A stretch of 61,849 nucleotides of DNA, filler included, from Diploschistes diacapsis (taxonomy: Eukaryota), in the NCBI GenBank assembly GCA_023645945.1. It is 15 parts of 15 records of this genome, joined end to end, with 100 filler letters (N's around TTAATTAATTAA, not from the genome) between each part and the next. Parts side by side here need not be neighbours in the genome. Positions count along the whole stretch, not along the records: positions 38,406 to 40,931 come from JALAIB010002173.1; 14 more parts are not named here. One strand, written 5' to 3'. Of this stretch, positions 1,966-60,102 are shown one piece after another. Every line of letters starts with the position of its first letter. The stretch's first letter is position 1. Both the position numbers and the translations under genes were made by a program. The notes under the pieces are model-generated. The model had not been told where the DNA came from. It saw only the letters and a list, made by a program, of their open reading frames with translations, and did no database searches.

Positions 1966-2180
1966 TAGAACGCCCCTACAGGAATACTACACAACCAGGG
2001 GCTGAGCCTAATCTGGAAGGATCACGTGTAGCTGCAATCTGTAGGCTGAATGGTTCAGATTCGAAAAGGTGAAAAAGAAACTATCTAGGTGGGAACAGGG
2101 CACATATAAATACTGGGTGCCAGCCCTACCAGCCCTACCAGGGTTCAACCCTTGAACCCACAAACGTTCAGGATGTTCCA
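1966..2180 (-). mobile_element. Solo LTR, family A (215 bp)
   Basis: GC-normal island with ends TAGAAC...GTTCCA, flanked by a 5-bp TSD AGATA (1961-1965, 2181-2185). It is the reverse complement of the LTRs at 39613 and 40693. Confidence 0.9.
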
Positions 2181-10636: not shown

Positions 10637-13600
10637 ATGTTCACCAACACGGAACCCAATGGGATGCACCACAGCCATCTGAGGTACAACTCTCCAGTGA
10701 ACCCATTGCCATCATCTCCTCCGCTTGCCGCCTCCCCGGCCACGCCAACAGCCCTCACCAGCTATGGCACCTCCTCTCCACCGGCGGCATCGCCGCCTCC
10801 AATGCAGTGCCGGCATCCTGCTTCCATGCCTGCGCCCATGTTGAAGGCTCTGGGAGGCCAGGCAGCATGATCGGTGGCGCGATGTTCATCGAGGATATTG
10901 ACCCAGCTGCGCCCGACGCAGCCTTCTTCAACATCAGCCGGGCGGACGCGGTGGCCATGGACCCACAACAGCGACAGTTGCTGGAGGTTGTGTACGAGTG
11001 CCTGGAGAACGGCGGCATCACGCTGGAGCGTCTTAACGGAGAGAAGGTTGGGACGTTCATCGGGAGCTTTATGAATGGTGGGCCATCTTCTTCCTTTCAA
11101 ATCAATGAATCTCAGTCCAGGCTGATATTGATACGGGTCCGCACCAGATTATCAAGACGTCCAAGCCCGAGATCCCGGAGATCGTCCTCCGGGCACCTTT
11201 GTCAGCCTAGGCCGTGCTATGCTCAGTAACAGGATCAGTCACTTTTACAATGTTAAAGGCCCTAGGTAAGTAAGCAGCGACACGTTCTCGCCTTCAAGTT
11301 CTGAGGGTATGGCCGTTGACCGATCTACCAGCATGTGCATCGACACAACCTGTTCAGGAGGCCTGACATCGGTCGACGTAGCCTGTCACTACCTGCGGTC
11401 AGGCAAGGTTTCGGGTGCTATCGTAGCCGCGGCATACCTCTAGCTCTCGCCCGAAGTGATGATGGATACGGGAAGCATGCGAGCGGCCTGGTCTCCAAGC
11501 GGCCGCTGCCACAGCTTTGATGCAAAGGCAGATGGCTATTGCCGCGCCGAGGCAGTCAACGCAGTGTTTCTCAAACTCCTCTCCGACGCCGTCCGTGACG
11601 GAGATCCTATCCGCGCGATAATCCGGGGGACAGCGACTAACAGTGACGGGCGCACTCCGGGATCACCAGCCCCAGCGGCGAGGCCCAGGCAGCTGCGATC
11701 CGCGCCGCATACGCGATTCCGGGCTCGATGGCGTCTACTCTGGGACAGGATTCCTCGAATGCCACGGTATGAGGACAATAGGCGACAGGATCGAAGTCAA
11801 GGCCGCTGCGAGCGTGCTTGCGAAAGGGCGGAACCCGCTTGAGCCGCTTATCATTGGCTCCGTGAGGGGCGACATCGGCCACTCGGAGCCGGCGGCAGGA
11901 ATCTCTGGGCTAATCAAGGCCATGATGGCGGTAGAGACGGGCATGATTTCTGGAAATCCGACCTTTGTAACTCCTAATCCTAACATCGACTTCTCCGGTC
12001 TGCATGTTCGCGCAACACGCGACAATATCCCCTGACCAGAGGCTTTGAGCCACTATCGCAGGGCCAGCGTCAACTCTTTCGGCTATGGTGGATCCAACGC
12101 CCACGTTGTTGGAGAACGCAACGCACTTTTTACAGCACAGAAATGCCGCCTTTCTAACCGCTCAGCCCTTCGTTGTCTCTTTAATAGATTGCAGTGCCAC
12201 GGGGTTAGATACAAAAAGTAACGGAACTGGGTCAGCTCTGGGACCTAGCATCAGACCTCAGGTCTTAGTCTTCTCTGCCAACGACGAGGACTCTCTGAAG
12301 CGCCAGGTCAATCTGCTCTCGCAACACGCCGTCAACCCTCGCGTTAACGTCAAGCTGTCCGACCTGAGCTACACCTTGTCTGCGCGACGGTCCCGGCATT
12401 TTTGCCGAGCATTTCTGTCTTACCGTCCAAACCCAAGCGGTTTCGTCGATCACATCCCGACGAACTTGGTACAATATGCTAAGAAACCCCAAAGCCTACC
12501 AAAGATTACGTTCGTCTTCACTGGTCAAGGAGCGCAGTGGCCGCAAATGGGTGCCGGGCTCCTCCGGATGTTCCCCAAGACGGCCAGGCGCTGCATACTG
12601 GAGCTCGACGACGTCCTGCAGGCACTACCGGAACATCTGAGGCCTCGATGGTCGCTGCTCCAAGAGCTCACAGAGCCTCGCGAGGCCGACCACCTCAGGC
12701 AGCCCGAGTTCTCCCAGCCACTATCAACGGCTTTGCAGCTCGCCATGATGGCCGTGCTCGATTCTTGGCATGTACAGGCGGACTTCGCCGTGGGACACTC
12801 CACAGGCGAGGTCGCCGCTGCGTGTTGCGCGGGGCTCCTGACGCCGGCACAGGCAATTCTAGTCGCCTATCTACAGGGACTGGCTGCCAAGGAGTTTCAT
12901 CCCATCCGAGAAATGGGTATGCTGGCCGTGGGGTTGTCTCCTGAGGGCGTCCAGCCATACTTGGAGTTGGGCGCTTACGCCGGCGGCGAGGTGTCTATTG
13001 CTTGTTATAACGGCCCATCCAGCCTGACGCTTTCCGAGCCTGCCGAGCTTCTGTCTGACGTACGCGAGACAGTCAAGTCGGATGGGCATTTTGCCCGGAA
13101 ATTGCAGGTCAAACTAGCATACCATTCCCGGCACATGGATGCTATAGCGGAACGCTGCGAGAGTCTGCTGCTAGATTATGGCCGCTTGGCCCCCGACGTT
13201 GAACCTAAGATGGGAGGGGGGCGGCCAATTATGGTTTCATCAGTCATGCAAAACCTGTCCCTGGGACGGCTGCTTGTGATGCGGCTTATTGGAAAGCCAA
13301 TATCAGGTCACCTGTTCGCTTCGCAGGTGCATGCGAGAGAATACTTACAGAGGAGTGTCAAGGAGAACCAAGCATCCTCATCGCGATCGGACCAAGCAAT
13401 ACCCTCTCGGGTCCTATATCCCAGATTGTCAGGGAAGCGAAAGTCGAAAATTCCGTCTACACGTCTGTCGCGAGGAGAGGCAAGACGGCGTTGATGCGAT
13501 CTTGGACGTTGCAGGCCAGCTCTTCCTGCGCGATGCCAGCATATCCCTTGAGAAGGTCAATACCGACGAGACCAAAGCGAGCAAAGCACCTCGAGTAGTC

Positions 13601-19414: not shown

Positions 19415-21084
19415 ATGTCAGTGCAGAAGCGCCAGGGCGAGGAGCTCGAAGGCGACATCAGCTTCATCACTACTCCCGCTGCAGTTCACTCAGAGTTCGG
19501 GACGGGCGAGGACTGTGGCGTCAAAACTACCAATGTGAGCACCATTGAGGTCTTGTACCACGGCAATTGATATCAATTGACTACTGATTTCACTGAAGCT
19601 GACAGCCATTGAAGTCCCAAGCCATCCATAATCCTCCCTTACCCGCCGAGGGTCCCGGCAATGAGTCCTTCTCGAACTTACTCCTCGGGGCGCTGCTGTT
19701 GGGCATCCCGATCTTTGTTACCTTCAGCCTTGGTGGTGGCTTTAAGACGACTGTCTTTTTTCTCATTTGCTTCCTCCTGCCGATTCTTGTCACCTTCTGG
19801 ACCGTGGCCTCGGCCTATTCGCCGCGCATCAACGACAAGGTCAAGCTTCCCGGCCGCCCCATCGGGGACTACATCACGTTCAAGAAGGACAAAGACCGCC
19901 AGCGATGGAGCAGCCGCAACAAGATCCCAATGAAGACCTTTTACGAGATGTACCTGGACGGTGACGTTGACTTCAACGGCGACGTACTAGACGTTATGGA
20001 GTACCGCCATGACTGGGCCAGCTTCGCCTTCACGTGGCCGGACTTCCAGTTCATTTTCTTCACCTTCGCCCGAGACGTGCTCTTCCACTCGCGCAAGCAG
20101 GACGAGGAGCAGGTCCGACCCAACTACGACCGCGGCAACGATCACTACTCGTGGTTCCTTGGACCCCGCATGGTCTACACGAGCGGCATCTTCTCCGACC
20201 CCACACGCGAGGAAACGCTCGAGGAGATGCAGGATAACAAGATGGCCATTGTCTGTGAGAAGCTCGCTCTCAAGGAGGGAGAGTCCCTTTTGGACATCGG
20301 TTGCGGCTGGGGCACCCTTGCCAAGTTCGCCAGCGTCAATTACGGCGCCCATGTCACCGGCGTTACCCTTGCCCGTAATCAGGCCGCCTGGGGTAATGAC
20401 GCCCTTCGCCGCGCGGGCATCCCCGATACCCAAAGCAATATCTTATGCATGGACTATCGTGACATTCCGGCGAGGAAATTCCACAAGATTTCCCAGCTCG
20501 AGATGGGCGAGCATGTGGGCATTCGCAAGCTCACGACGTTCTTCCGTCAGTGCTACGATATGCTCGAGGACGACGGCGCTATGTATGTTCAGCTCTCTGG
20601 TCTGCGCAAGGCATGGCAATACGAGGATTTTATCTGGGGGCTTTACCTGAACAAGTACATCTTTCCAGGCGCTGACGCCTCCACCCCGCTTGCCTTCTAC
20701 ATAAGCTGCCTTGAGAGCGCCGGATGGGAGATCAAGAGGTAAGTCCCGAAGCCGCAAGACAAAACTCCTTATACTAACCCCGTCCCCAGCATCGACACGG
20801 TCGGCGTACACTACTCGGGTACCCTCTGGCGCTGGTACCGCAACTGGCTCGGCAACGCTGACACCATCAAGGCCAAGTACGGCCAGCGTTGGTACCGCAT
20901 GTGGGAGCTCTTCCTGGCCTGGTCCACCATCGCGTCGCGCCAGGGTAGCGCCGCCTGCTTTCAGATGGTCGTGGTCAAGAATTTGAACGCCACCCACCGC
21001 GTCAACGGATTTGCGTCCCAGTTCGGCCTCTCTGGCGCCCTTGCCGCGAGCCGCGCTGCCGGGAAGGCGACCTTTCCAAAGTGA
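19415..21084 (+). CDS. MTS1: Sphingolipid C9-methyltransferase (cyclopropane-fatty-acyl synthase family)
   Basis: Exons 19415-19534, 19615-20738 and 20790-21084 with GT-AG introns. Two N-terminal TM helices, YDRGNDHYSWFLGPRMVYTSG, SAM motif LDIGCGWG, KYIFPGAD. The frame is intact. Confidence 0.92.
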
Positions 21085-28680: not shown

Positions 28681-29669
28681 AGCTAAATTTGGTCTGTATG
28701 CGAGGATGAGTTAATTCCCTGGGGACTCTAATCGCCAGCTGATGTCGTCCGTGTCGAGTACCAGCGAAGATTTTATGGAATCTCGACATCGAGGAAACAC
28801 GATATAGCATCTCAAATAAGTGTTACCTGAGCGGATGCTGTGATGTAGTCCTTACAGATGCGAATTAGACAACATCGCTACTGCACCTCGCGCCTTGAAG
28901 ATTTCCTTGTTACGCCAATAGCCTCGAGTGGCTCACCCAACTGAGTTAAGTGGGATGTTTATTTTCTCCAAAGTCTGATTTGAGATTCTATCTGCTTCCA
29001 AGCCCCTTCCAGTTCGGATCACTTTGTCGATGAGGCGATAGTCAAGTTCAAGTTCTCTTTATCTTATCCATTTAGACGTTATTCTTTGCATTTATTGCAT
29101 TTGAATTGGTTGAATGGTAGTAGTTTTCAAAAGCAGTCACCCTCTCTGAAAACGCCTCACAAAATTCATCGAGGCAGCTTCTCTTTTGACTTATCATAAG
29201 GAGTCATATCTCAAGACGATACTCTAGGCTTCCCTTGCTTATCCGCTCACGTCTTTAGCACATTCGGTTGATTCCCTCACGCTTCCTTGTCATTCTGTTC
29301 CCAAAGCATGGCCCTCCGTAGCTTCATGATCCTTTTCCCTTGCCTCAGGACCCAGACCCGATAGCTGCGCTAGGCTTTGCCGGCTTGAGACTAATCCTCT
29401 TTCGAGTTAGCCTCTCCGCTAGGCTTTATCCGGGTTAGCGGATACTGACTTGATCGTTAGCTGCTATATGGTCTAGGGGCGGAATGTTATAAAAGAAACA
29501 ATTTAATCTTTATTTACGAAATTTAAATCATTTTGCACTATTTTACGCTATCTAGTCTATTTTAAACGCTACAAACACCTTTTTGCCACCAAATTTTCTA
29601 CGCCAGTAATTTGAACGCTTTTTTGAATTTTTATAACATTTTTCGAGCGTCTTTTTGAAGTATCTGAAG

Positions 29670-29983
29670 TAGGCTGGCCGTCACTGACACTGACACGGCC
29701 GTGTCAGTGACACGGATACTGACAGTATTAGTGTCCGTGTTTTAGATTTTTTAATTGCGGTATCCGTGTTCGTGGATTTACGGAAATATAATATTCGTAT
29801 TAATATTAATATTTTAAAATTTTTAATTATAATATCCGTGTCCGTGTTTTTACTGTAATGTAGTGTCCGTGTTAGTGTCCGTGTTTTAAAATTTTAACTA
29901 TCGTGTCCGTGTCAGTGTCCGTGTTTTGAAAATTTTTGCTGCAGTGTCCGTGTTAGTGACCGTGGCACGAAACGGCCAGCCTA
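29670..29983. mobile_element. Short hAT-like MITE (TIR TAGGCTGGCCGT) with GTGTCC subterminal repeats
   Basis: Inverted ends TAGGCTGGCCGT / ACGGCCAGCCTA; same family as 38406-38610 and 48985-49589. No TSD is visible. Confidence 0.75.
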
Positions 29984-38405: not shown

Positions 38406-38610
38406 TTTTTACGGATATTATATTATAATAAAAGTACGGACACGGATATTACGATTAAAAATTTTAAAACACGGATACTTCTACGGATATTATATTGCAA
38501 TAAAAGCACGGACACGGACACTACGGCTAAATATTTTAAAACACGGATACTGCCACGGCCGTGTCCGTGGCACGGATACGGCCGTGTCAGTATCCGTGAC
38601 GGCCAGCCTA
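38406..38610. mobile_element. Right arm of the hAT-like MITE family
   Basis: ACACGG/ACGGATA repeats ending ...GACGGCCAGCCTA; cut by the contig start. Confidence 0.8.
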
Positions 38611-39612
38611 TTTTGTAGTTCTTGTCGATGTAGTCGTATATGAAGCTATGGTTTTGATGTTGAGTGTCGTGTAAAATATGTTCGTAGTATTATTCGAACG
38701 TTGCGTTTGTGATTAGTTTATTGTATAAGACATACTTCCCGTCTTAATATATTGAATATTCGCAGCGGAAATCCTTACATTTATTTAGGTATTTAAGGTT
38801 TAAGTAATTCAGATTATTGATAATAGTTTTCTTATTCTATCATTATTATATAAGTAAGTTCTATAATTCTTGTCGGTGCAATCGTATATAAAGCTATAGT
38901 TTTAATATTAGATGTCGTGTAAAACATATTTATAATATCGTTTAAACGTTACGTTTATGATTAGTTTGCCGTATAGAACATATTTCTTATTTTAATGTGT
39001 TAAGTATTCGCAGCGGAAATCTTTATATTCGTTTAAATATTCGTAGTTTGGGTGATTTCGATTATTAGTAACGAGAGCTTTTTTTCGAAAGTATTCCTTT
39101 TTAGTACTAACACGGTTATTAATACGAAATTCGTACGATGCGTTTTCGTTTAGATTGTTGTTTAAAGGTTTTTAGGTATTTAATTTAGTTTTAAGGATCG
39201 GATAATATATTTATATTTCCGTAAATAACCGTTTTATCGTTTCTTTATATTTCGTTGTATCTTCCGGAATATTGTTGTTCTTCGAAATTTCGTTTATTGA
39301 TATCAAGATTAATAAAGGCGTGGTTTCGATATCTTTATCAATAGAATCGTCGGTGTCGTTTTGCTAGGCTGTGGTGTCCGATTTAATTATAACTTCTTTT
39401 TAAGATTGTCCGTCGGTCGGACAGTCCTTTGTAGGGATAATTGTAGTTACGTTGAAATGGTGATCTGTCGCGGTTAGGATATCTTTTTTAGCGATTTTGT
39501 TCTTAGATCTATAATCTCGAGCGAAGTGGTTTATCTTGTTATATTTAAAGCATTTCTTTTCTTTAATTAAAGATTCCCCGTTGAGTATTTTAGCCCCTTT
39601 CTTCTGATTTGG
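38611..39612 (-). mobile_element. RIP-degenerate retrotransposon gag region with an internal ~248-bp tandem duplication
   Basis: About 39560-39510 reads KCFKYNKINHFARDY (CX2CX4HX4C after reverting G>A). CGCAGCGGAAATC occurs at 38761 and 39009 within two colinear blocks. Confidence 0.7.
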
Positions 39613-40909
39613 TGGAACATCCTGAACGTTTATGGGTTCAGGAGTTGAACCCTGGTAGGGCTGGTAGGGCTGGCACCCAGACTATTTATATGTGCCCTGC
39701 TCCCACCTAGATAGTTCCTTCTTCACCTTTTCGAATCTGAACCATTCAGCCTACAGATTGCAGCTACACGTGATCCTTCTAGATTAAGCACAGCCCCTGG
39801 TTATGTAATATTCCTGTAGGGGCGTTCTACATTCGAAAAAATCTTTCAAAACTACCTATTCGGCTTAGGATCTGAAGTATTCAGTTTACGTCATTTACCT
39901 ACCTACCTACCTATTTACGAAAAGAATCTAGACCTAATCTTATTTAATGCTACCTACGCGAGCTGGCGCGTTTTTGAAGATGAAGGTCTACGACACCTAG
40001 GAGCGACGAAAAACCTCTTACGACACCCACCAGAAGCGACGAAAACCTCTTACGACAAATAATAGATCGATAAATCAGAATTTTCGATCTAATTAGTATT
40101 CAGTTATAATTATAATTAAAATACTAAATCTAATCTTATCTATCGCGATAAAACATTATTTAAGCGAATAACCTGATAATAATAGATCTACGTACGACAT
40201 CTATTTAAAACGACGAAAAGCTTCTACGAAAAATTTACGATAAATAGATCGACGAATTAGAAACCACGATTTAATTAATTAGAATAAAAGAGCTTAAGGT
40301 CTTATATAAATTGAATATATTTTTTGAACCTTTCGAACCTTTATTTTATCGATAAACAAACCTTTATTCACTATTTTTCGAAAGCGGTTTCTGCTGCCAT
40401 GTTTACTGCTGCTATTACTGCTTTTCGTTCTGGGAATCGCCTGTTTTCAGTACTATTAGTCTAACAGCACCCATTTACGACGCCGAAACTTAAGAGGAGT
40501 AAAATCGGGCACGTGTCTACGTGTAATACGGGTTAAAAAGAATAAAAAGAAAAGGAACTGAACTAAGCCGAAAAGAATATTAAAGTATGAGAGGACTAAA
40601 AGTAGATATCCGAATTAAGAAAGAAAGAATAAGGGTTTTGTTTTGTTTTGTTTTGTTATTAGGGGACAGCAACAGTTTGGAAAGGGAGATAGTAGAACAT
40701 CCTGAACGTTTATAGGTTTAGGAGTTGAACCTTAGTAGGGCTGGTAGGGCTAGCATCTAGACTATTTATATATGCCTTGCTCCCATCTAAATAGTTCCTT
40801 CTTCACCTTTTCGAATCTGAACCATTCAGCCTACAGATTGCAGCTACACGTGATCCTTCCAGATTAGGCACAGCCCCTGGTTGTGTAGTATTCCTGTAGG
40901 GGCGTTCTA
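39613..40909 (+). mobile_element. Non-autonomous miniature LTR element (TRIM-like), family A, 1297 bp
   Basis: 217-bp direct LTRs at 39613-39829 and 40693-40909; TSD TTTGG on both sides; PPT GGAAAGGGAGATAG before the 3' LTR; 863-bp interior without an ORF. Confidence 0.92.
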
Positions 40910-41292
40910 TTTGGGCGGGGTTTGTTAGTTANNNNNNNNNNNNNNNNNNNNNNNNNNNNNNNNNNNNNNNNNNNNTTAATTAATTAANNNNNNNNNNNNN
41001 NNNNNNNNNNNNNNNNNNNNNNNNNNNNNNNAGTTATAAGTTAAAAACACGTAAAAGAGAAGGAGGTGGGCGGATGACTTGTGTGGGCGGGCATATGACT
41101 TATGAAATATGTTACTTATCAAGGGTTCTTATATAAATCGTCATCGTCGATGTTTTAATGTTCCATTCTCAACGTATGAGTACCACATACTTCATTAAGG
41201 CACATAGAATCTATCTTGCCGTTGAGAAGTGCGTTATCCGTAGCTATAATACAGATAACATAACTTTTGATCAACGCCAGGCTTCCAGCAGT

Positions 41293-42646: not shown

Positions 42647-42819
42647 TGTAACAGCGGGGGTAGTGCCTAATAGGTAGCAACTATCCCACTGAGCCAAAAG
42701 ACTGAACACAATGCTTTCAGAAACCCCGAAAGCACTGTTTCCCTATTACACTATATGTAGGTGCGTGGCTGTGGCAGCAGGGGGACGTGAACCCCGGTGC
42801 GCACACTACGGGCGTTACA
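42647..42819 (-). mobile_element. Solo LTR, family B (173 bp)
   Basis: TGTAAC...GTTACA with TSD CCCAA (42642-46, 42820-24). Confidence 0.93.
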
Positions 42820-43220
42820 CCCAAAGCTCGGCCACTTCAAATTACTACCGCTAACATTCTACGGTTTTTAAAAACAACCTATTCGTCGCAATTAGAATTT
42901 AATCGATCTAAATCGAATTTATTTTCTTCCTTTTCATCCTTCTCGATTTTAAAAACGCGATAACGTTTTTTACGCGTTATAAATCATTTTGAAATTATCC
43001 GATTCAATTTAACCCGAATTATTATTTTAAAAACTTCGTTTATATTAATGATAAATATAACCGAAAAGATTCGACGCGAACGTATTCGATTCAATTGGAA
43101 TTTAAAAATTACGATCGCGAATCTTTAATTTATCGATAAATATTAAGTATCGCGATTTTACAAATGATTTGTTAAAATTACTAATCTTTAGACGAAATAA
43201 ATCGAGTCGAATAAATTTAA

Positions 43221-43392
43221 TGTAACAGCGGGGGTAATGCCTAATAGGTAGCAACTATCCCACTGAGCCAAAAGACTGAACACAATGCTTTCAGGAACCC
43301 CGAAGCACTATTTCCCTATTACACTATATGTAGGTGCGTGGCTGTGGCAGCAGGGGGATCTGAACCCCGGTGCGCACACTTCGGGCGTTACA
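43221..43392 (-). mobile_element. Solo LTR, family B (172 bp)
   Basis: TGTAAC...GTTACA with TSD TTTAA (43216-20, 43393-97). Confidence 0.93.
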
Positions 43393-47000: not shown

Positions 47001-48984
47001 CCGTGATATATACGGAACCTCCTCCATCGTCTGAACGGTCCAGTTGGAATGGACCCAGCTTCCATCTCTCGGATTTATCACCAATGTAAGCAATAATCGA
47101 TGACGGTATCCTGCACGAGACTGGGTACTCCTTGCTTCCCCCTGAGAGAGAGGTGCCAGTACCAACGGCGGCCGTGAGAATCTGGGAACAACACCGGCTG
47201 GAGATTTGAAGGGAGGATCTGGAAGCATAGGGGCAAGATATTGGTACCTACATAGCTGTTGCGCACAAGGGAGACTTTGACGGAGGGGCCTCCGTGCATA
47301 CCTCGCCTCTCTCGCAGCCGACTAGCCGACAGCAAGAGCTGGATGGACGGTGCGAAGGTTATCCAAGCTCCATGTATTTGCGCTCTTGTACTATACAGTC
47401 TCGTAAGCGGCAACTCGCGACTTTGCTCGCGCGATGCCACCTTTTACCCGTTAGGCACCATGCAAGCGCCGAGGCATATCGTAGGCATGTAGAGCCCCCG
47501 TGGAACAAGCATTCCGTTTATGAAGGCAGGCAAGGACGATAGCGGGATCGTGTAATGCCTGCTCTTAGATGGGCTCCGACGACTTGCGCGCTCGCAGCAA
47601 ATACAACTTCTCCTGTCGAGAATGAGATGCCTGCTCCAGGTAGCTGCCATAACAATATGCCGCAAGATCAACAATGTTCACAAGGTTACGTCCGAGAAAG
47701 CTGTTTGAAAGATCGATACCTGCGAGATGGCCGGCACCTGGACAGGGTTGGACGTGTCAAAAAAGGTGGAGAGAAATTGGGACGGCATAATGTTGCAAAG
47801 AGCGAAAGCGAAGACAGAGCCCCGCCGAGAAAGATAATATAGAAGTTAGCCCGTGGCCAAAAAAAACGAGGGGCAGACGGTCCAGAGCGTCCAGCTTTCG
47901 AAAGCACTGCATTGGGTTGTGGACATCGGTCGTCAGAGATAGAGGACCTGATACCGACCGTGCGTCCTGTTTTGGCATCCCTTGGGATCGTACAGGGTGC
48001 TCGAGCCAAGATCGCCCGGCGGCTCTAGAGCCTGCATCAGGAGGAGGCACAATTGATGCGATCCTTGCTGGAGATCTTGAAGATCTCGGTCTGCAGCCTC
48101 CGGCTCGTACACCAGCAGTGTGGATGCAGAGACGTCGTTGTGTCTTCGCTCCAGATAGCGGCATTGAAGCAGAGACAGAAGCAAAGTTCCGAAGAGCTTC
48201 GAGTGCTGTGTTTTGTGAGTGCCTCCCCGTGGCAAGCACGACGCAGGCGCTTCCTGTCGATCCCGAAGAACAGGGCCCTCATACGCGCATCCGCATATCC
48301 GCGCTGCATGCGCCAAGATCGAGCCGTCCCGAGCAAGCCCTCGTAGTTAGGTAGCTACTTCTTCGCGTCAAGGCAAGGGAACGAGAATCGTACACGCCAG
48401 ACCAATCCACAAACTCCTCGAGCCATATCACCAAGTAAAAACACACCATAACGCATCGCGTCGCATCGAGCGCTGGCATGCATGCACCGCCAGCTCAATC
48501 ACCAACAAAGGCCTTCAACAACAACAACGACGCATGCCAATCGGGCCTGGCCGTCTCGGGCTCTGCGCTGTCTGCCTGCCTGCTTGCCTACTTGCTTGCC
48601 TGCGTCCATTGACTCCCGGTTTATAATTCATGAACCACGAGCCGCAGGCCCACGGCGTCTGACATGCCGTGCCAGATACGACCCATGCCCGAGCAAAGCA
48701 GCGCAGGCACATCAGACCTTCAGCTGCCGTTGAGGTGCCGTTGAGACGCGCTGCATATCCACGGAAGTATTACTATATGTACTTCTCGGGACCTGATGGG
48801 GGGNNNNNNNNNNNNNNNNNNNNNNNNNNNNNNNNNNNNNNNNNNNNTTAATTAATTAANNNNNNNNNNNNNNNNNNNNNNNNNNNNNNNNNNNNNNNNN
48901 NNNATATTCTGGTTAACGTAGTATCGTAAATATTGTTTTAAAATTTAATTTATTTTTTTTATTTGATCATCTGTTTGTGGGTAG

Positions 48985-49589
48985 TAGGCTGGCCGTCACT
49001 GACACTGACACGGCCGTGTCAGAGACCCGGACATTGACAGTGTCAGTGTCCGTGTTTTAGATTTTTTTGCTGCGGTGTCCGTGTCCGTGGATTCACGGAA
49101 ATGCAGTATCCGTGTCAGTATCCGTGTTTTAGATTTTTTAATTGCGGTGTCCGTGTCCGTGGATTTACGGAAATGTAATGTCCGTGTCAGTATCCGTGTT
49201 TTAAAATTTTTAATTACGATGTCCGTGTCCGTGTCCGTGTTTTCAAAAATAATTTCTAAAAAATAAAAGCGTGAGAAATAGGCGTAATAAATCCAGAATT
49301 ATTAAAATTAAAAAAATATGTTGAAGTATTTCGGTAAATGCACGGACACGGATACTATAATAAAAAAATTTTCGGTACGGATATTAATACGGACACTATA
49401 TTATAATAAAAGCACGGACACGGACACTGCAATTAAAAATTTTAAAACATTGATACTGACACGGACACTGCATTTCCGTGAATCCACGGACACGGACACT
49501 GCAGCTAAAAAATCTAAAACACGGACACTGACACTGTCAATGTCCGTGTCACTGACACGGCCGTGTCAGTGTCAGTGACGGCCAGCCTA
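48985..49589. mobile_element. 605-bp foldback hAT-like MITE
   Basis: About 175-bp near-perfect inverted arms starting TAGGCTGGCCGTCACTGACACTGACACGGCCGTGTCAG. The arms are built from CCGTGT repeats around an AT-rich spacer. Confidence 0.88.
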
Positions 49590-51130
49590 ACGCAAAGAAT
49601 CAGACTACTGGGCAAAACATCCCGAAAAGAAAAAGAAAAAAGTTAGGCCGGATTCGGAAAGCACGCTAGTTTCTTTAGAAACTAATACGCCTAATTCGGA
49701 AATTAGTTATACCTCTTTCGATCAAAAACGGACTGGATTCTCGATTCGGCAGCAATCTCGCATATATACTCGGATTTATCGGCTTTAAATCATTCGAGTC
49801 ATGTGATTCAGCCCTACGATGGAGGATAGTAGCATAAATCAACATCTTAGGTGTCGGAACAGTTAAATTCCGAATTAAATTCACCAATAAGATCCTTCGG
49901 CTGACAAATTGAAAATACGCGCCGGATTTAGGGACAAACCTCATCTCTGCTACCGCCATACGCGAAAAAGGCGCGAAAACCATTCTAAATAAGGATTATT
50001 GCCATATTATTTCAATGGGTTACTAGCAAAAGGTGCTTATTTAAATCAATTGATAATCATATCCACTGAACTAGTTAAAAAGGACCCCGCTTTTACTAGT
50101 CAAGAATTAGTCAGCAAGAACCTATAACACAAGCGAATGGGACACATCGGTTCTTCAGCCCTAGAGCAATTGCCTAAACAGGCAATAAAAATTAATTTCG
50201 CCAAATCAACCAACCAAAGCCTTATACAACATACATACAAGCTAAAGCGACAAAAAAGATATCCAGAAAACCCTCTCAGCCCCAAACTACCTATTTAAAA
50301 CTAATGGACTCGGATATTTGCGGTCCAATATCTCCGAAAACACTATTCACCAGAAACGTGACTACTCTTAAAGACACTAAGCCTATTCAGGCTAATACAT
50401 CAGATCCTGAATTATTTACGATAAAAGATTCAGAAGAAGAAAATCGACCTAATTATAACAACCTACCGGAAGATGTTAATAGTAATAATATCAATAACAA
50501 CGATGTCGATAACAATGATGTCAATATTGACACTGACCTAGGAAATTTCAGGCGACCTAGGCAATTCAGGCGACCTAGAAAATTTAGGCGATTTAGGCAA
50601 TCCAGGCGACCTAGATAATTCAGCGACTTAGGAGATTTAAGCGACCTAAGAAATTCAGGCCCCGACCATTTTTCGGCGCTAAACCGCATTTGGCAATACC
50701 TACATCATACCTAGAATTTCGGCATATCATATAATCAGACCTCTTATGGCCTAAAAGGCTACTGCGATTTTGATTAGGGGGGGATTATAAAAGCCGAAAA
50801 TCAATCAGCGGTTATTTATTCCTAATCGGGACTAACGTCATTTCCTAGATATCTACCCTACAAAAGACAGTGGCGCTTAACAGCTATGAGGCTGAATATA
50901 TGGCGCTAAAAGAAGCGACAAAAGAACAGCTGTATCTAACTAATACGCTTAGTCAAATTCCTTACCTAAATAAGGAATTAACTAAGCATATTTTTACAAA
51001 CAGCCAATCAGCGATCGAGCTAACAAAAAACCCGGTACACCACAAGCGAACAAAACATATTAATATTCAATATCATTTTATTCGGACAGCCAATAAAAAC
51101 AAAAATATATATTTAAAATATATATCCACC
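49590..51130 (+). mobile_element. Internally deleted Ty1/copia pol remnant
   Basis: YAPDLGTNLIS, HKRMGHI and DSDICGP, then a jump to RIWQYL, GYCDFD*G, VALNSYEAEYMAL and NPVHHKRTKHINIQYHFIR (RNase H). The integrase core and most of the RT are missing. Confidence 0.88.
50535..50660 (+). repeat. About seven 18-bp tandem units (GACCTAGGCAATTCAGGC)
   Basis: Degenerate units read directly; they sit at the deletion junction of the copia element. Confidence 0.85.
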
Positions 51131-51521: not shown

Positions 51522-54031
51522 CCGTAGGAGTTTTAATTCTATTTATATTAAAAAAGAATAATATTTTACGCTTATACGTCGATTATAAAAGATTAAATAA
51601 ATAACGAGGAAAAACCGTTATTCATTATTTTTAATTAACGAAACGCTAAATCGCTTTATAAACGCAAAATTATTTTCAAAAATAAATCTAAAAAATACGT
51701 ATTATCGCATCCGCATTCGCGAAAACGATAAATAAAAGACTACCTTCCGTACTAAATACGGTCATTTTAAATATCAAATGATACCATTTGGGCTAATAAA
51801 CGTCTTAGCTATATTTTAAACTTATATCAATCGAGTTTTAATAGGTCTAATTAATAATATTTACGTAATTTATTTCGATGATATTTTAATATATTTAAAA
51901 AACGCCGAGGAATACGCGGAGCATCTCCGGCTTATACTCGAAAGATTATGAGATTTCGAGCTATACGCGAATCATAAGAAATACGAGTTCTTTATATAGA
52001 AGTTCGAGTTCTTAAGGTATATTATCTCTATTAAGGGGATTAAAATGAACCCCGTTAAGATATAAAACGTAGCCGATTAACCTACACCCATTACTTTCTG
52101 AGAAGTTCAAATCTTTTTAACCTTTTGTAATTTCTATAAAAGATTTATTTATATATATTCCAGAACAGCAAACCCCCTAACTAACCTATTACAAGATAAC
52201 AAGGACGGGAAGAAATCTAGACCCCTATCGTAGGGCGATCGGCAGCAGGCCGCGTTCGAAAAATTAAAGGTTAACTTTACTCGAGCACCTATATTTATAC
52301 ATTATGACCTAGAAGTTCATATCCGGGTAAAGACCGATACGTCTAATTTTATTATAGTAGCGATTATATCCCAATTAATAACTACGGACGGAATATAATA
52401 TCCCGTCGCTTTCTAATCGAGAAAAATAATTCCCGCCGAAAGAAATTATAAAACCCACGATCAAGAATTATTAATTATTATAAAAGTTTTTAAACATTAA
52501 AAACATTATGTAACGCCCAAAGGTGCGCCCTGGGGTTCAGGTCCCCCTGCTGCCACAGCCACGCACCTACATATAGTGTAATAGGGAAACAGTGCTTCGG
52601 GGTTCCTGAAAGTATTATGATTAGTCTTTTAGCTCAGTGGGATAGCGTTACTTTATTAGGCATTACCCCCGCTGTTATAGTTATGCTTTCATTCTCTAAG
52701 TCGTTAATTCGAGCATAAGGCTTGTTACTTATATAATCGAATTTGTTGCGTTACAATTGAGCGTGCGATCTTACGGGATTAACGTTATATAAAATATACG
52801 ATTAACCTTAAATGCGGCTAAGTAATCCCGTCTCTAAATTCATAACGTAAATATTAGAAACGGTTTAAGATATCTAATATACTCGAGACGTTATATGAGA
52901 CGTGGCAGGTATTGGGGGGTTAGTACTATAAAGAAGGGAGATAATTAGAACGCCCAAAAATGGGCCCTAGGGTTCAGGTCTTCCTACTGCCACAGCCACG
53001 CATCTACATATAATATAATAAAGAAACAGTGCTTCGGGGTTCCTAAAAGCATTATGATTAATCTTTTGGCTCAGTGGGATAGCGCTACCCTATTAGGCAC
53101 TACCCCCGCTGTTACACATTATCTAGAAAACGCTCGGCATGCTATCGAAATCCTTACGGACTATAATAACCTAAAAGGTTTTATAAATCAAAACTCTCTA
53201 ACCGATAAGTAAATAAGATGGACAATACGCCTAACTTCTTTTAATTTTATTATTACGTACCGCCCCGATAAGATAAATCCTACCGACGCACCGTTATAAA
53301 GATTAGATTATTACGAAACGAACCATTAAATTAATAGGTTATTATTGACCCTAAAGCAAAAACTTATTAAATTAAATAAGTTATTCGTTATATCATATCG
53401 AAATATGTCCGATATAATGTCGTAAGCCCTGCGTAAAGACGCCGCGATGTTACGAAAGTTTAGAAAACTCCGCTTTAAATCAAAAAACCCGGAAGGCGAG
53501 AACGACGATAATATATCGTAAGTTTATCGCAGGTTAATAAAAACGCTGTTTAATTAAGAAAGCTTAGATACAGTGTTGTCAGCCTTTGATATACCTGGGT
53601 TAGAACACCGGGAAAACGAGAATAATAATCGAATACCGCAGGTCTATCGTAGGTTAACTGAAACGCTACCTACTTAAAAAGAATTAATAATAAAATATTT
53701 ATTTATCCCGCGAGTATTCGTGAAAGATATTACGAGGCGAAAGTTTACCGATACCTTACTTACGGAGAAACTACTCGACTTAATACGTATCCTATATGTA
53801 ACGGACGGTTTTATTAAAAAGAAAATATTTTTTTTATCGTAACTCATCCGTATTAATATCGTAATTAAAACGATATAATATTATAATAATATAGAATTAT
53901 TATATTATAAAAACCTTATATACGTTCTAAAAAACGACGATATTAAATCAGAACTCTTACGATTAATTTACAATTATAAATTATCAAATTATTATAACGG
54001 GGAACGTATTTACGAACTTATAACCCGAAAT
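51522..54031 (+). mobile_element. RIP-degenerate Ty3/gypsy pol (RT-RNase H), interrupted by a TRIM
   Basis: KTTFRTKYGHFKYQMIPFGL, VIYFDDILIY, KTDTSN and HDQELL. KH*KHYLENARHAIEILTD is restored when 52509-53121 is removed. Confidence 0.92.
52509..53116 (+). mobile_element. TRIM, family B, 608 bp
   Basis: 171-bp direct LTRs at 52509-52679 and 52946-53116; TSD CATTA (52504-08, 53117-21); PPT AAAGAAGGGAGA; 266-bp non-coding interior. Confidence 0.93.
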
Positions 54032-59882: not shown

Positions 59883-60102
59883 AGGAACATCCTGAACGTT
59901 TATCAATTTAAAGGTTGAACCCCGTAGGGCGGTAGGGCTGGCACCTATGTTATTTATTTATACCCTTCTCCTATTTAGATAGTTTCTTTCTTATCTTTTC
60001 GAATCTGAACCATTCAACCTATAAATGCCCAGCTACACGTAATCCTTCCGGATCAGGCTCAGCCCCCGGTAGTGTAGCACCTATTTCTGTACGGGCGTTC
60101 TA
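59883..60102 (+). mobile_element. Diverged LTR, family A
   Basis: GGAACATCCTGAACGTTT...TTTTCGAATCTGAACC...GGGCGTTCTA; no TSD. Confidence 0.85.

What the first reader, a model, noticed from the sequence alone, without database searches (positions are those of the whole stretch)
39613..40909. Second, unrelated miniature LTR element (1297 bp) with the same self-priming geometry
Seen: 217-bp LTRs, TSD TTTGG, PPT GGAAAGGGAGATAG. One base after the 5' LTR lies ATTCGAAAAAAT (39831-39842). It pairs with ACCTTTTCGAAT in the LTR (39725-39736): 9 contiguous matches, and 12/12 if two G>A changes are reverted. The LTR motif sits about 35 nt after TATTTATA (39683), and TTTTCGAAT is conserved in all four LTR-A copies. 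All four copies end in GTTCTA rather than CA. Inference: the same TATA-to-motif spacing and PBS complementarity in two families with different sequences makes coincidence less likely, and points to a class of self-priming mini-retroelements in this genome.
Basis: partly seen in the sequence, partly recalled or inferred. Interest (0 to 1): 0.75.

Follow-up and report, generated by a model that had tools for sequence, protein, structure and literature searches.

The report
Self-priming fungal mini-retrotransposon with helper
A 1.3-kb non-coding jumping gene in a mould genome appears to start copying itself with a piece of its own RNA, a known trick that it shares with a related full-size retrotransposon which probably supplies its enzymes.

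Summary
Window 39613-40909 is a RIP-damaged copy of a multicopy 1.25-1.3 kb non-coding LTR element (family A) in a filamentous ascomycete. The predicted PBS exists in sister copies: ATTCGAAAAGGT in 23 of 26 junctions, the exact complement of LTR motif ACCTTTTCGAAT. No tRNA among 44 pairs beyond 8 nt. The genome holds a related coding Ty3/gypsy chromovirus (family B, G000:C466; LTR 74-76% identical). Its motif and PBS differ by a compensatory C:G/G:C swap that RIP cannot produce. Best reading: a TRIM-like non-autonomous partner of a Tf1/sushi-type self-priming chromovirus. Self-priming is known in fungal chromoviruses, and this scan noted self-priming minis in other fungal genomes. Two extras. 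All 93 family-A right ends read TA, with target duplications next to them, whereas B ends CA in 28 of 47. Three loci join the PBS to an inverted U3 exactly through the 12-mer; one is a B-left, A-right chimera with a 5-bp target duplication, pointing to shared reverse transcription. The transcript start was not tested, and the third Tf1 'pretzel' duplex was not found.

The parts
39608..39612 (+). left target-site duplication TTTGG
39613..39829 (+). 5' LTR, 217 bp, TGGAAC...GTTCTA
39683..39690 (+). TATA-like box, 42 nt before the primer motif (same distance in 54 of 74 family-A and 29 of 31 family-B LTRs)
   Evidence: function inferred
39725..39736 (+). putative self-primer ACCTTTTCGAAT (inferred 5' end of the RNA)
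39737..39829 (+). R-U5 segment predicted to fold as a long stem-loop that brings the primer to the PBS; two inner pairs change A:T to G:C between subfamilies or families
39831..39842 (+). PBS, here ATTCGAAAAAAT (two G>A changes); ATTCGAAAAGGT in 23 of 26 copies
39830..40692 (+). 863-bp non-coding interior, RIP-mutated, multicopy, with an internal ~70-bp direct repeat
40679..40692 (+). polypurine tract GGAAAGGGAGATAG (GGAAAGGGGGATAG in less damaged copies; family B has GGAGAGGGGGGTAG)
40693..40909 (+). 3' LTR, TAGAAC (RIP-type change of TG) ...GTTCTA; primer motif at 40805-40816
40910..40914 (+). right target-site duplication TTTGG
1966..2180 (-). family-A solo LTR with target-site duplication TATCT
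59883..60102 (+). degenerate family-A LTR (about 78% identical), no target-site duplication seen

Best explanation
Family A is a non-autonomous, TRIM-like LTR retrotransposon that primes its own reverse transcription in the Tf1/sushi way. Shown: LTR-PBS-interior-PPT-LTR anatomy, many insertions with 5-bp duplications, exact 12-nt motif/PBS complementarity, and its compensatory conservation in a related coding chromovirus (family B). Inferred: RNA starts at the motif about 42 nt after the TATA start; R-U5 folds so that the first 12 nt pair with the PBS; the reverse transcriptase's RNase H frees the 12-mer's 3' end, which primes minus-strand DNA; the PPT primes the plus strand; Gag, RT and integrase come in trans from family B or a close relative (about 0.6 for B itself); the integrase accepted a U5 end fixed as TA.
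For: PBS ATTCGAAAAGGT in 23 of 26 junctions; 12, 11 or 10 Watson-Crick pairs in 13, 7 and 2 of 22 copies with the motif in view. Family B: motif AGCTTTTCGAAT, PBS ATTCGAAAAGCT in 31 of 47; the varying pair is C:G in 20 of 22 A copies and G:C in 25 of 46 B copies, 20 of the other 21 being G>A and/or C>T changes. B copy G000:C466 has RT, RNase H, integrase, Tf2-like SH3 and chromodomain in Ty3/gypsy order; best solved match includes Ty3 Gag-Pol, E 6e-51. A and B LTRs align at 74-76% over A positions 52-227/234, through TATA, motif, U5 and PBS, and their PPTs are alike. Same TATA-to-motif distance. Motif-to-PBS RNA folds with z -3.2 to -3.7 in 6 A copies and -2.1 to -3.9 in 3 B copies when cut at the PBS end. 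No tRNA among 44 pairs over more than 8 nt, none over more than 5 nt by its 3' 18 nt. Perfect duplications at 5 of 9 complete elements and 23 of 40 solo-type LTRs. A 753-bp chimera at G000:C2023 has a B left end, an A right end and CGGGC on both sides. Self-priming is described for Tf1/sushi elements (PMC4600332, PMC6317226, bioRxiv 2022.12.06.519325; passages).
Against: The transcript start is not mapped. The leader-to-U5 duplex of the Tf1 'pretzel' was no better than shuffles in 9 of 9 copies (22 to 297 of 300 shuffles as good). The fold test is biased by cutting at the PBS; with 45 nt from the PBS start the z-scores weaken to -1.2 to -3.8, and in 4 of 6 A copies a leader hairpin takes the last four PBS bases. 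The motif is conserved but only ranks 22 of 204 windows in the LTR. The compensatory swap is one evolutionary event, however many copies carry it; the two inner stem changes are transitions that RIP could also make. The A interior and the first 51 nt of its LTR show no similarity to B, so descent from B by simple deletion is not shown. Three of 9 complete elements lack duplications, so recombination or misassembly among copies occurs.
Confidence: 0.85

Rival explanations
1. Self-priming is right, but the helper is not family B: an autonomous element with A-type LTRs was lost, decayed or is not assembled.
For: A and B differ at both ends (TGGAAC...GTTCTA against TGAGAC...GTTTCA) and in the left part of U3. 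The assembly has 4361 contigs and most RT matches lie in short contigs unrelated to B at DNA level (only 2 of 29 other RT loci match B's pol).
Against: Of 25 A-type 5' LTR junctions, 23 continue into the mini interior and 2 into inverted U3; all 22 A-type 3' LTRs follow mini interior; none joins coding DNA. The B/A chimera with a target duplication puts both in one integrated unit.
Confidence: 0.3
2. The motif/PBS complement is a structural hairpin (packaging, dimerisation or polyadenylation) and priming uses a tRNA, a tRNA fragment or another RNA; TTCGAAT is also the tRNA T-loop sequence.
For: TTCGAAT occurs in T-loops of 3 of 44 tRNAs checked. The tRNA set is a lower bound (63 of 1216 candidates scored). 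Fungal GalEa copia elements have a conserved hairpin in place of a PBS (PMC5445492, passages).
Against: The PBS does not begin with TGG; the longest tRNA complement is 8 nt and not 3'-terminal. One arm lies inside the LTR at a fixed distance behind the TATA box, unlike the GalEa hairpin, whose two arms lie 12-41 nt apart at and after the LTR end. The partner is a chromovirus.
Confidence: 0.08
3. The complementarity is chance in AT-rich, RIP-mutated DNA, or the element is an assembly artefact at a contig end.
For: The window copy alone folds no better than shuffles; its right end lies 22 bp from a contig end.
Against: Nine full-length copies on nine contigs; 1 of 20,000 shuffles reach 12 nt; less damaged copies pair better, not worse; compensatory change in family B.
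Confidence: 0.02

Closest known systems
[quoted passage not shown]
   Same: PBS complementary to a motif in the element's own 5' LTR behind a TATA box; no tRNA PBS; PPT; 5-bp duplications; the coding relative has RT-RNase H-integrase-chromodomain.
   Different: Family A is 1.3 kb and non-coding; its LTR ends TA where the fission-yeast elements always end CA; the leader-U5 duplex of the three-duplex pretzel was not found; priming is not shown by experiment.
TRIMs (terminal-repeat retrotransposons in miniature), including those annotated in Parastagonospora nodorum and other ascomycetes
   Same: Short LTRs (217 bp), non-coding interior, PBS position and PPT, many insertions, dependence on a helper.
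   Different: Longer than the under-1000-bp definition and without the tRNA-complementary PBS of that definition (PMC6934838); within the 30-2000 bp setting used by a fungal pipeline (PMC13041039). The passages read on fungal TRIMs do not address priming.
Non-TGCA LTR retrotransposons (TGTA type) of plants
   Same: TG...TA termini in a family that inserted with duplications (bioRxiv 137141, passages).
   Different: Those are mostly copia and plant; here a non-autonomous partner of a fungal Ty3/gypsy element whose own end is CA.
PBS-directed, integrase-independent insertion of Tf1 (PMC11042837)
   Same: A single-stranded PBS at the cDNA 3' end anneals to matching sequence and gives junctions; a candidate route for the PBS-to-inverted-U3 joints.
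   Different: The abstract, passages and one section read describe tandem and hybrid elements and PBS-matching sites; the words 'inverted' and 'self-primer' do not occur in that text.

Membership tests
Tf1/sushi self-primed chromoviruses (works like) | PBS complementary to a segment of the 5' LTR | tested here: met
   12 of 12 pairs in 13 of 22 A and 22 of 46 B copies; compensatory swap between families; shuffle control
Tf1/sushi self-primed chromoviruses (works like) | No tRNA-complementary PBS | tested here: met
   No TGG start; at most 8 nt against 44 tRNAs, an incomplete set
Tf1/sushi self-primed chromoviruses (works like) | The complementary segment is the 5' end of the RNA | not testable with these tools
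   No RNA run was listed; only the fixed 42-nt distance from the TATA-like box supports it
Tf1/sushi self-primed chromoviruses (works like) | Three-duplex pretzel structure | tested here: inconclusive
   Central duplex and a closing U5 stem predicted; leader-U5 duplex not above shuffles; the folding tools do not model pseudoknots
Chromovirus (family B, the likely helper) | RT-RNase H-integrase order with C-terminal chromodomain | tested here: met
   Pfam RVT_1, RT_RNaseH, Integrase_H2C2, rve (just under cut-off), SH3_Tf2-1, Chromo in G000:C466
Tf1/sushi clade (family B, membership) | RT groups with named Tf1/sushi elements in a tree | not tested
   No named reference set was held; the best protein hits are mostly unnamed, 37-55% identical
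Chromovirus (family A itself) | Encodes Gag and Pol | tested here: not met
   Longest stop-free stretch 76-102 aa in 4 interiors; no translated match to 30 RT-bearing loci
TRIM | Short LTRs, non-coding interior, PPT, target duplications, multicopy | tested here: met
TRIM | Under 1000 bp and tRNA-complementary PBS (strict definition in PMC6934838) | tested here: not met
   1245-1297 bp; PBS pairs with the LTR, not a tRNA; hence 'TRIM-like'
Fungal GalEa copia (conserved hairpin site) | Palindromic 9-mer after the LTR pairing with a second 9-mer 12-41 nt downstream; copia partner | tested here: not met
   The partner arm lies 106-112 nt upstream inside the LTR; the related coding element is Ty3/gypsy

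The most novel reading that the evidence does not exclude
Self-priming leaves a fossil signature: because the cDNA's PBS end is complementary to the primer motif in its own LTR, it folds back or anneals to a partner strand and copies U3 backwards. The three LTR-PBS-inverted-U3 loci (two families) would be such products, and the B-left, A-right element with a 5-bp duplication would be a direct record that the mini and the chromovirus were reverse-transcribed in one particle and inserted by an integrase that accepts a TA end. Such junctions would give a sequence-only test for self-priming and for helper-parasite pairs in any genome.
Probability: 0.4. Interest if true: 0.62.

Novelty: new variant of a known kind. 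Interest (0 to 1): 0.42.

Why it matters
For filamentous-fungal elements, self-priming is usually inferred from one complementary stretch. Here it rests on many copies, a compensatory transversion in the related coding element and junctions that pass through the primer/PBS match. It shows that a non-coding mini element can keep the self-priming signal and spread, and that annotation tools which require a tRNA PBS or TG...CA ends would miss the family. It is not a new mechanism. If the fold-back reading holds, it offers a genomic test for self-priming and for which helper moves which mini element.

Tried and rejected
RNA evidence: no RNA holder was listed for one intact copy; this says nothing on expression. 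Pretzel leader duplex: not above shuffles in 9 copies. Coding origin of the interior: no translated match to B or 29 other RT loci. An autonomous element with A-type LTRs: none among 25 5' and 22 3' junctions. TA end as per-copy RIP damage: rejected, 93 of 93 right ends are TA while 82 of 96 left ends keep TG and most CpA sites in the LTR are changed in 1-20% of copies, though two sites are near 48% and one is 82 of 88. A shifted right boundary ending in CA: rejected by duplications directly after GTTCTA. RLx_Ayoly of Leptosphaeria maculans, recalled for its 217-bp LTR: the table gives 10,397 bp (PMC3105345), so no match is claimed; sequences were not compared. The LTR pair at 42647-43392 as one element: rejected, each is a solo LTR with its own duplication. 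Fold-back loci as library or assembly chimeras: unlikely for C1724 and C2023 because the two U3 halves differ, but not checked against reads. Look-ups in this scan's notes for this genome and for fold-back junctions returned nothing. Paper searches for self-primed TRIMs (3 papers), fungal TA ends (none) and snap-back strong-stop DNA (listing only) showed no description of these features; the library lacks most subscription papers, and the original Tf1 priming papers were seen only as references.

Full report
1. Observation. The window is a chain of contigs joined by linkers; the element lies on G000:C1306. A host gene places the genome among filamentous ascomycetes. The interior shows RIP: against one less damaged copy it has 58 G>A and 40 C>T among 127 substitutions.

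2. The family. A search of the genome gave 43 matches (40 of 219 candidates scored); 9 span the whole element and the 30 best include interior sequence. A pattern for the LTR start matched 82 places. Complete copies are 1245-1297 bp; 5 of 9 have perfect 5-bp duplications, 1 has 4 of 5, 3 have none. Of 40 solo-type LTRs with both flanks, 23 have perfect duplications. The interior has no stop-free stretch above 102 codons in 4 copies and no translated match to 30 RT-bearing loci.

3. The primer signal. In 26 distinct family-A junctions the PBS reads ATTCGAAAAGGT 23 times; the window copy is one of the three damaged ones. Among 22 copies with the motif in view, 13 pair at 12 of 12 positions, 7 at 11 and 2 at 10. 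The pattern used fixed most of the first nine PBS bases, so the free evidence is positions 10-12 and the motif. One of 20,000 shuffled LTRs gave a 12-nt complement; 202 other interior stretches reached 8 nt at most. The PBS has no TGG start, and 44 tRNAs (an incomplete set) pair with it over at most 8 nt, and by their 3' 18 nt over at most 5. Against this: the motif is conserved (variability 0.02 against 0.056 in R-U5) but ranks only 22 of 204 windows, and the window copy folds no better than shuffles.

4. The coding relative. A pattern for LTR end plus PBS matched 131 places against 2 for the control; 73 distinct junctions were examined, 26 of family A and 47 of a second family, B. One B copy, G000:C466, runs from LTR through a gag-like region with a zinc-knuckle-like motif, a protease-like motif (both read by eye, no Pfam hit), RT, RNase H, integrase, Tf2-like SH3 and chromodomain to PPT and LTR. 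It is broken by stops and frame changes. Its RT matches Ty3 Gag-Pol at E 6e-51; no tree with named elements was made. A and B LTRs align at 74-76% from A position 52 through the PBS, their PPTs are alike, but the left 51 nt of the LTR and the interiors do not match. B has motif AGCTTTTCGAAT and PBS ATTCGAAAAGCT (31 of 47). The one differing pair is C:G in 20 of 22 A copies and G:C in 25 of 46 B copies, and 20 of the other 21 B copies show G>A and/or C>T. This double transversion cannot come from RIP, though it is a single event. The TATA-to-motif distance is 42 nt in 54 of 74 A and 29 of 31 B LTRs. Two pairs inside the R-U5 stem also change together (A:T 46, G:C 25, G:T 2, G:A 1, A:C 0 within A; A:T 70 of 72 in A against G:C 17, A:C 27, A:T 1 in B), but they are transitions and count sequences, not events. 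Cut at the PBS end, motif-to-PBS RNA folds with z -3.2 to -3.7 (6 A copies) and -2.1 to -3.9 (3 B copies); with more leader the signal weakens and a hairpin competes for four PBS bases in 4 of 6 A copies. The leader-to-U5 duplex of the Tf1 pretzel was not above shuffles in 9 copies.

5. The TA end. All 93 family-A right ends seen read TA, while 82 of 96 left ends keep TG. B ends CA in 28 of 47 junctions. Most CpA sites in the A LTR are changed in 1-20% of copies, two in about half and one in 82 of 88. Duplications start directly after GTTCTA. So the TA was fixed before the family spread (inference: an early RIP-type change in a founder) and was accepted at insertion. TG...TA ends are reported in plants (bioRxiv 137141, passages).

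6. Fold-back junctions. Three places join an LTR end and PBS to the reverse complement of U3, overlapping exactly in the 12-mer (3 matches, control 0). C1295 and C1724 are family A and run to the exact LTR start; C1724 has no duplication and its halves come from different subfamilies. C2023 is a 753-bp unit: B LTR, PBS, 126 nt of inverted B U3 (7 differences from the forward copy), the end of the A interior, PPT and A LTR, with CGGGC on both sides; TGAGAC is B's true left end. Inference: plus-strand DNA ending in the PBS annealed to the motif, copied U3 backwards and, in C2023, switched to an A template before insertion. This suggests that A and B were copied together. In Tf1 about half of the cDNA keeps a single-stranded PBS that directs annealing (PMC11042837; abstract, passages and section 9). 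Rearrangement between neighbouring copies after insertion, or misassembly, remain possible; no reads were available.

7. Mechanism and rivals. Most likely (0.85): Tf1-type self-priming by a non-autonomous element using the proteins of B or a close relative. Shown: anatomy, copy number, complementarity, covariation, absence of a tRNA match. Inferred: RNA start, cleavage, priming, trans-supply. Within that reading the helper may be a missing A-type element (0.3), although none of 25 5' and 22 3' junctions leads into coding DNA. Priming by another RNA with the duplex serving structure: 0.08. Chance or artefact: 0.02.

8. What is known. [quoted passage not shown] TRIMs are annotated in ascomycetes (PMC8549362, PMC13041039; passages). 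PMC5445492, PMC2864245, PMC3601003 and PMC3105345 were read as passages; no supplements were read, and element tables in supplements could hold this family or its PBS. Searches showed no paper on a self-primed fungal mini element or on such fold-back joints, within a library that lacks most subscription journals. Six unchecked notes of this scan report self-priming minis in other fungal genomes; they were not tested here and are not counted as support.

9. Verdict. Real, well supported, and a variant of known biology: a TRIM-like partner of a self-priming chromovirus. It fails the strict TRIM definition on size and PBS type, and B's clade is not placed. The fixed TA end and the fold-back and chimeric junctions are the parts a specialist may not expect. 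Interest 0.42; the fold-back reading has probability about 0.4 and would deserve about 0.62.

Noticed in passing
L030 (G000:C2023), minus strand 605-1357: 753-bp chimera: family-B LTR, PBS, 126 nt of inverted B U3, the last part of the A interior, PPT, family-A LTR; CGGGC on both sides.
   Followed up: yes
L074 (G000:C1724:1897-2235) and L058 (G000:C1295:1-209): Family-A LTR, PBS, then inverted U3 ending exactly at the LTR start. C1724 is 339 bp, has no duplication and its halves come from different subfamilies; C1295 is cut by the contig start.
   Followed up: partly
window 52509-53116: Second mini LTR family (C, about 608 bp, duplication CATTA); 57 LTR-PBS junction matches in the genome; 9-nt complement between PBS and LTR; several tandem arrays sharing LTRs. 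No coding partner was identified.
   Followed up: partly
window 42647-42819 and 43221-43392: Two solo LTRs of family C, with duplications CCCAA and TTTAA.
   Followed up: partly
family-A leader, window 39839-39875 (damaged here): In intact copies the PBS end and leader can form a hairpin that competes for the last four PBS bases in 4 of 6 copies folded; not seen in family B.
   Followed up: partly
window 39737-39742 and L057 137-142: The bases just after the primer motif resemble each family's own LTR start and pair with its LTR end (GAAC/GTTC in A, GAGAC/GTTTC in B).
   Followed up: partly
window 29668-29964, 38410-38610, 48970-49604; L016, L071: A MITE-like inverted-repeat family with internal repeats; copies interrupt family-A elements, one inside the LTR next to the primer motif.
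   Followed up: no
whole window: The window is a chain of separate contigs joined by N44-TTAATTAATTAA-N44 linkers, so neighbours across a linker are not genomic neighbours.
   Followed up: yes
L007 and L172: The 3' flank of one A copy equals the 5' flank of another (ATAAG), a hint of recombination or misassembly between copies.
   Followed up: no
window 12049-13494 and 19603-20742: Polyketide synthase acyltransferase region with frame breaks between open stretches, and a sphingolipid C9-methyltransferase gene, on the long contig.
   Followed up: no
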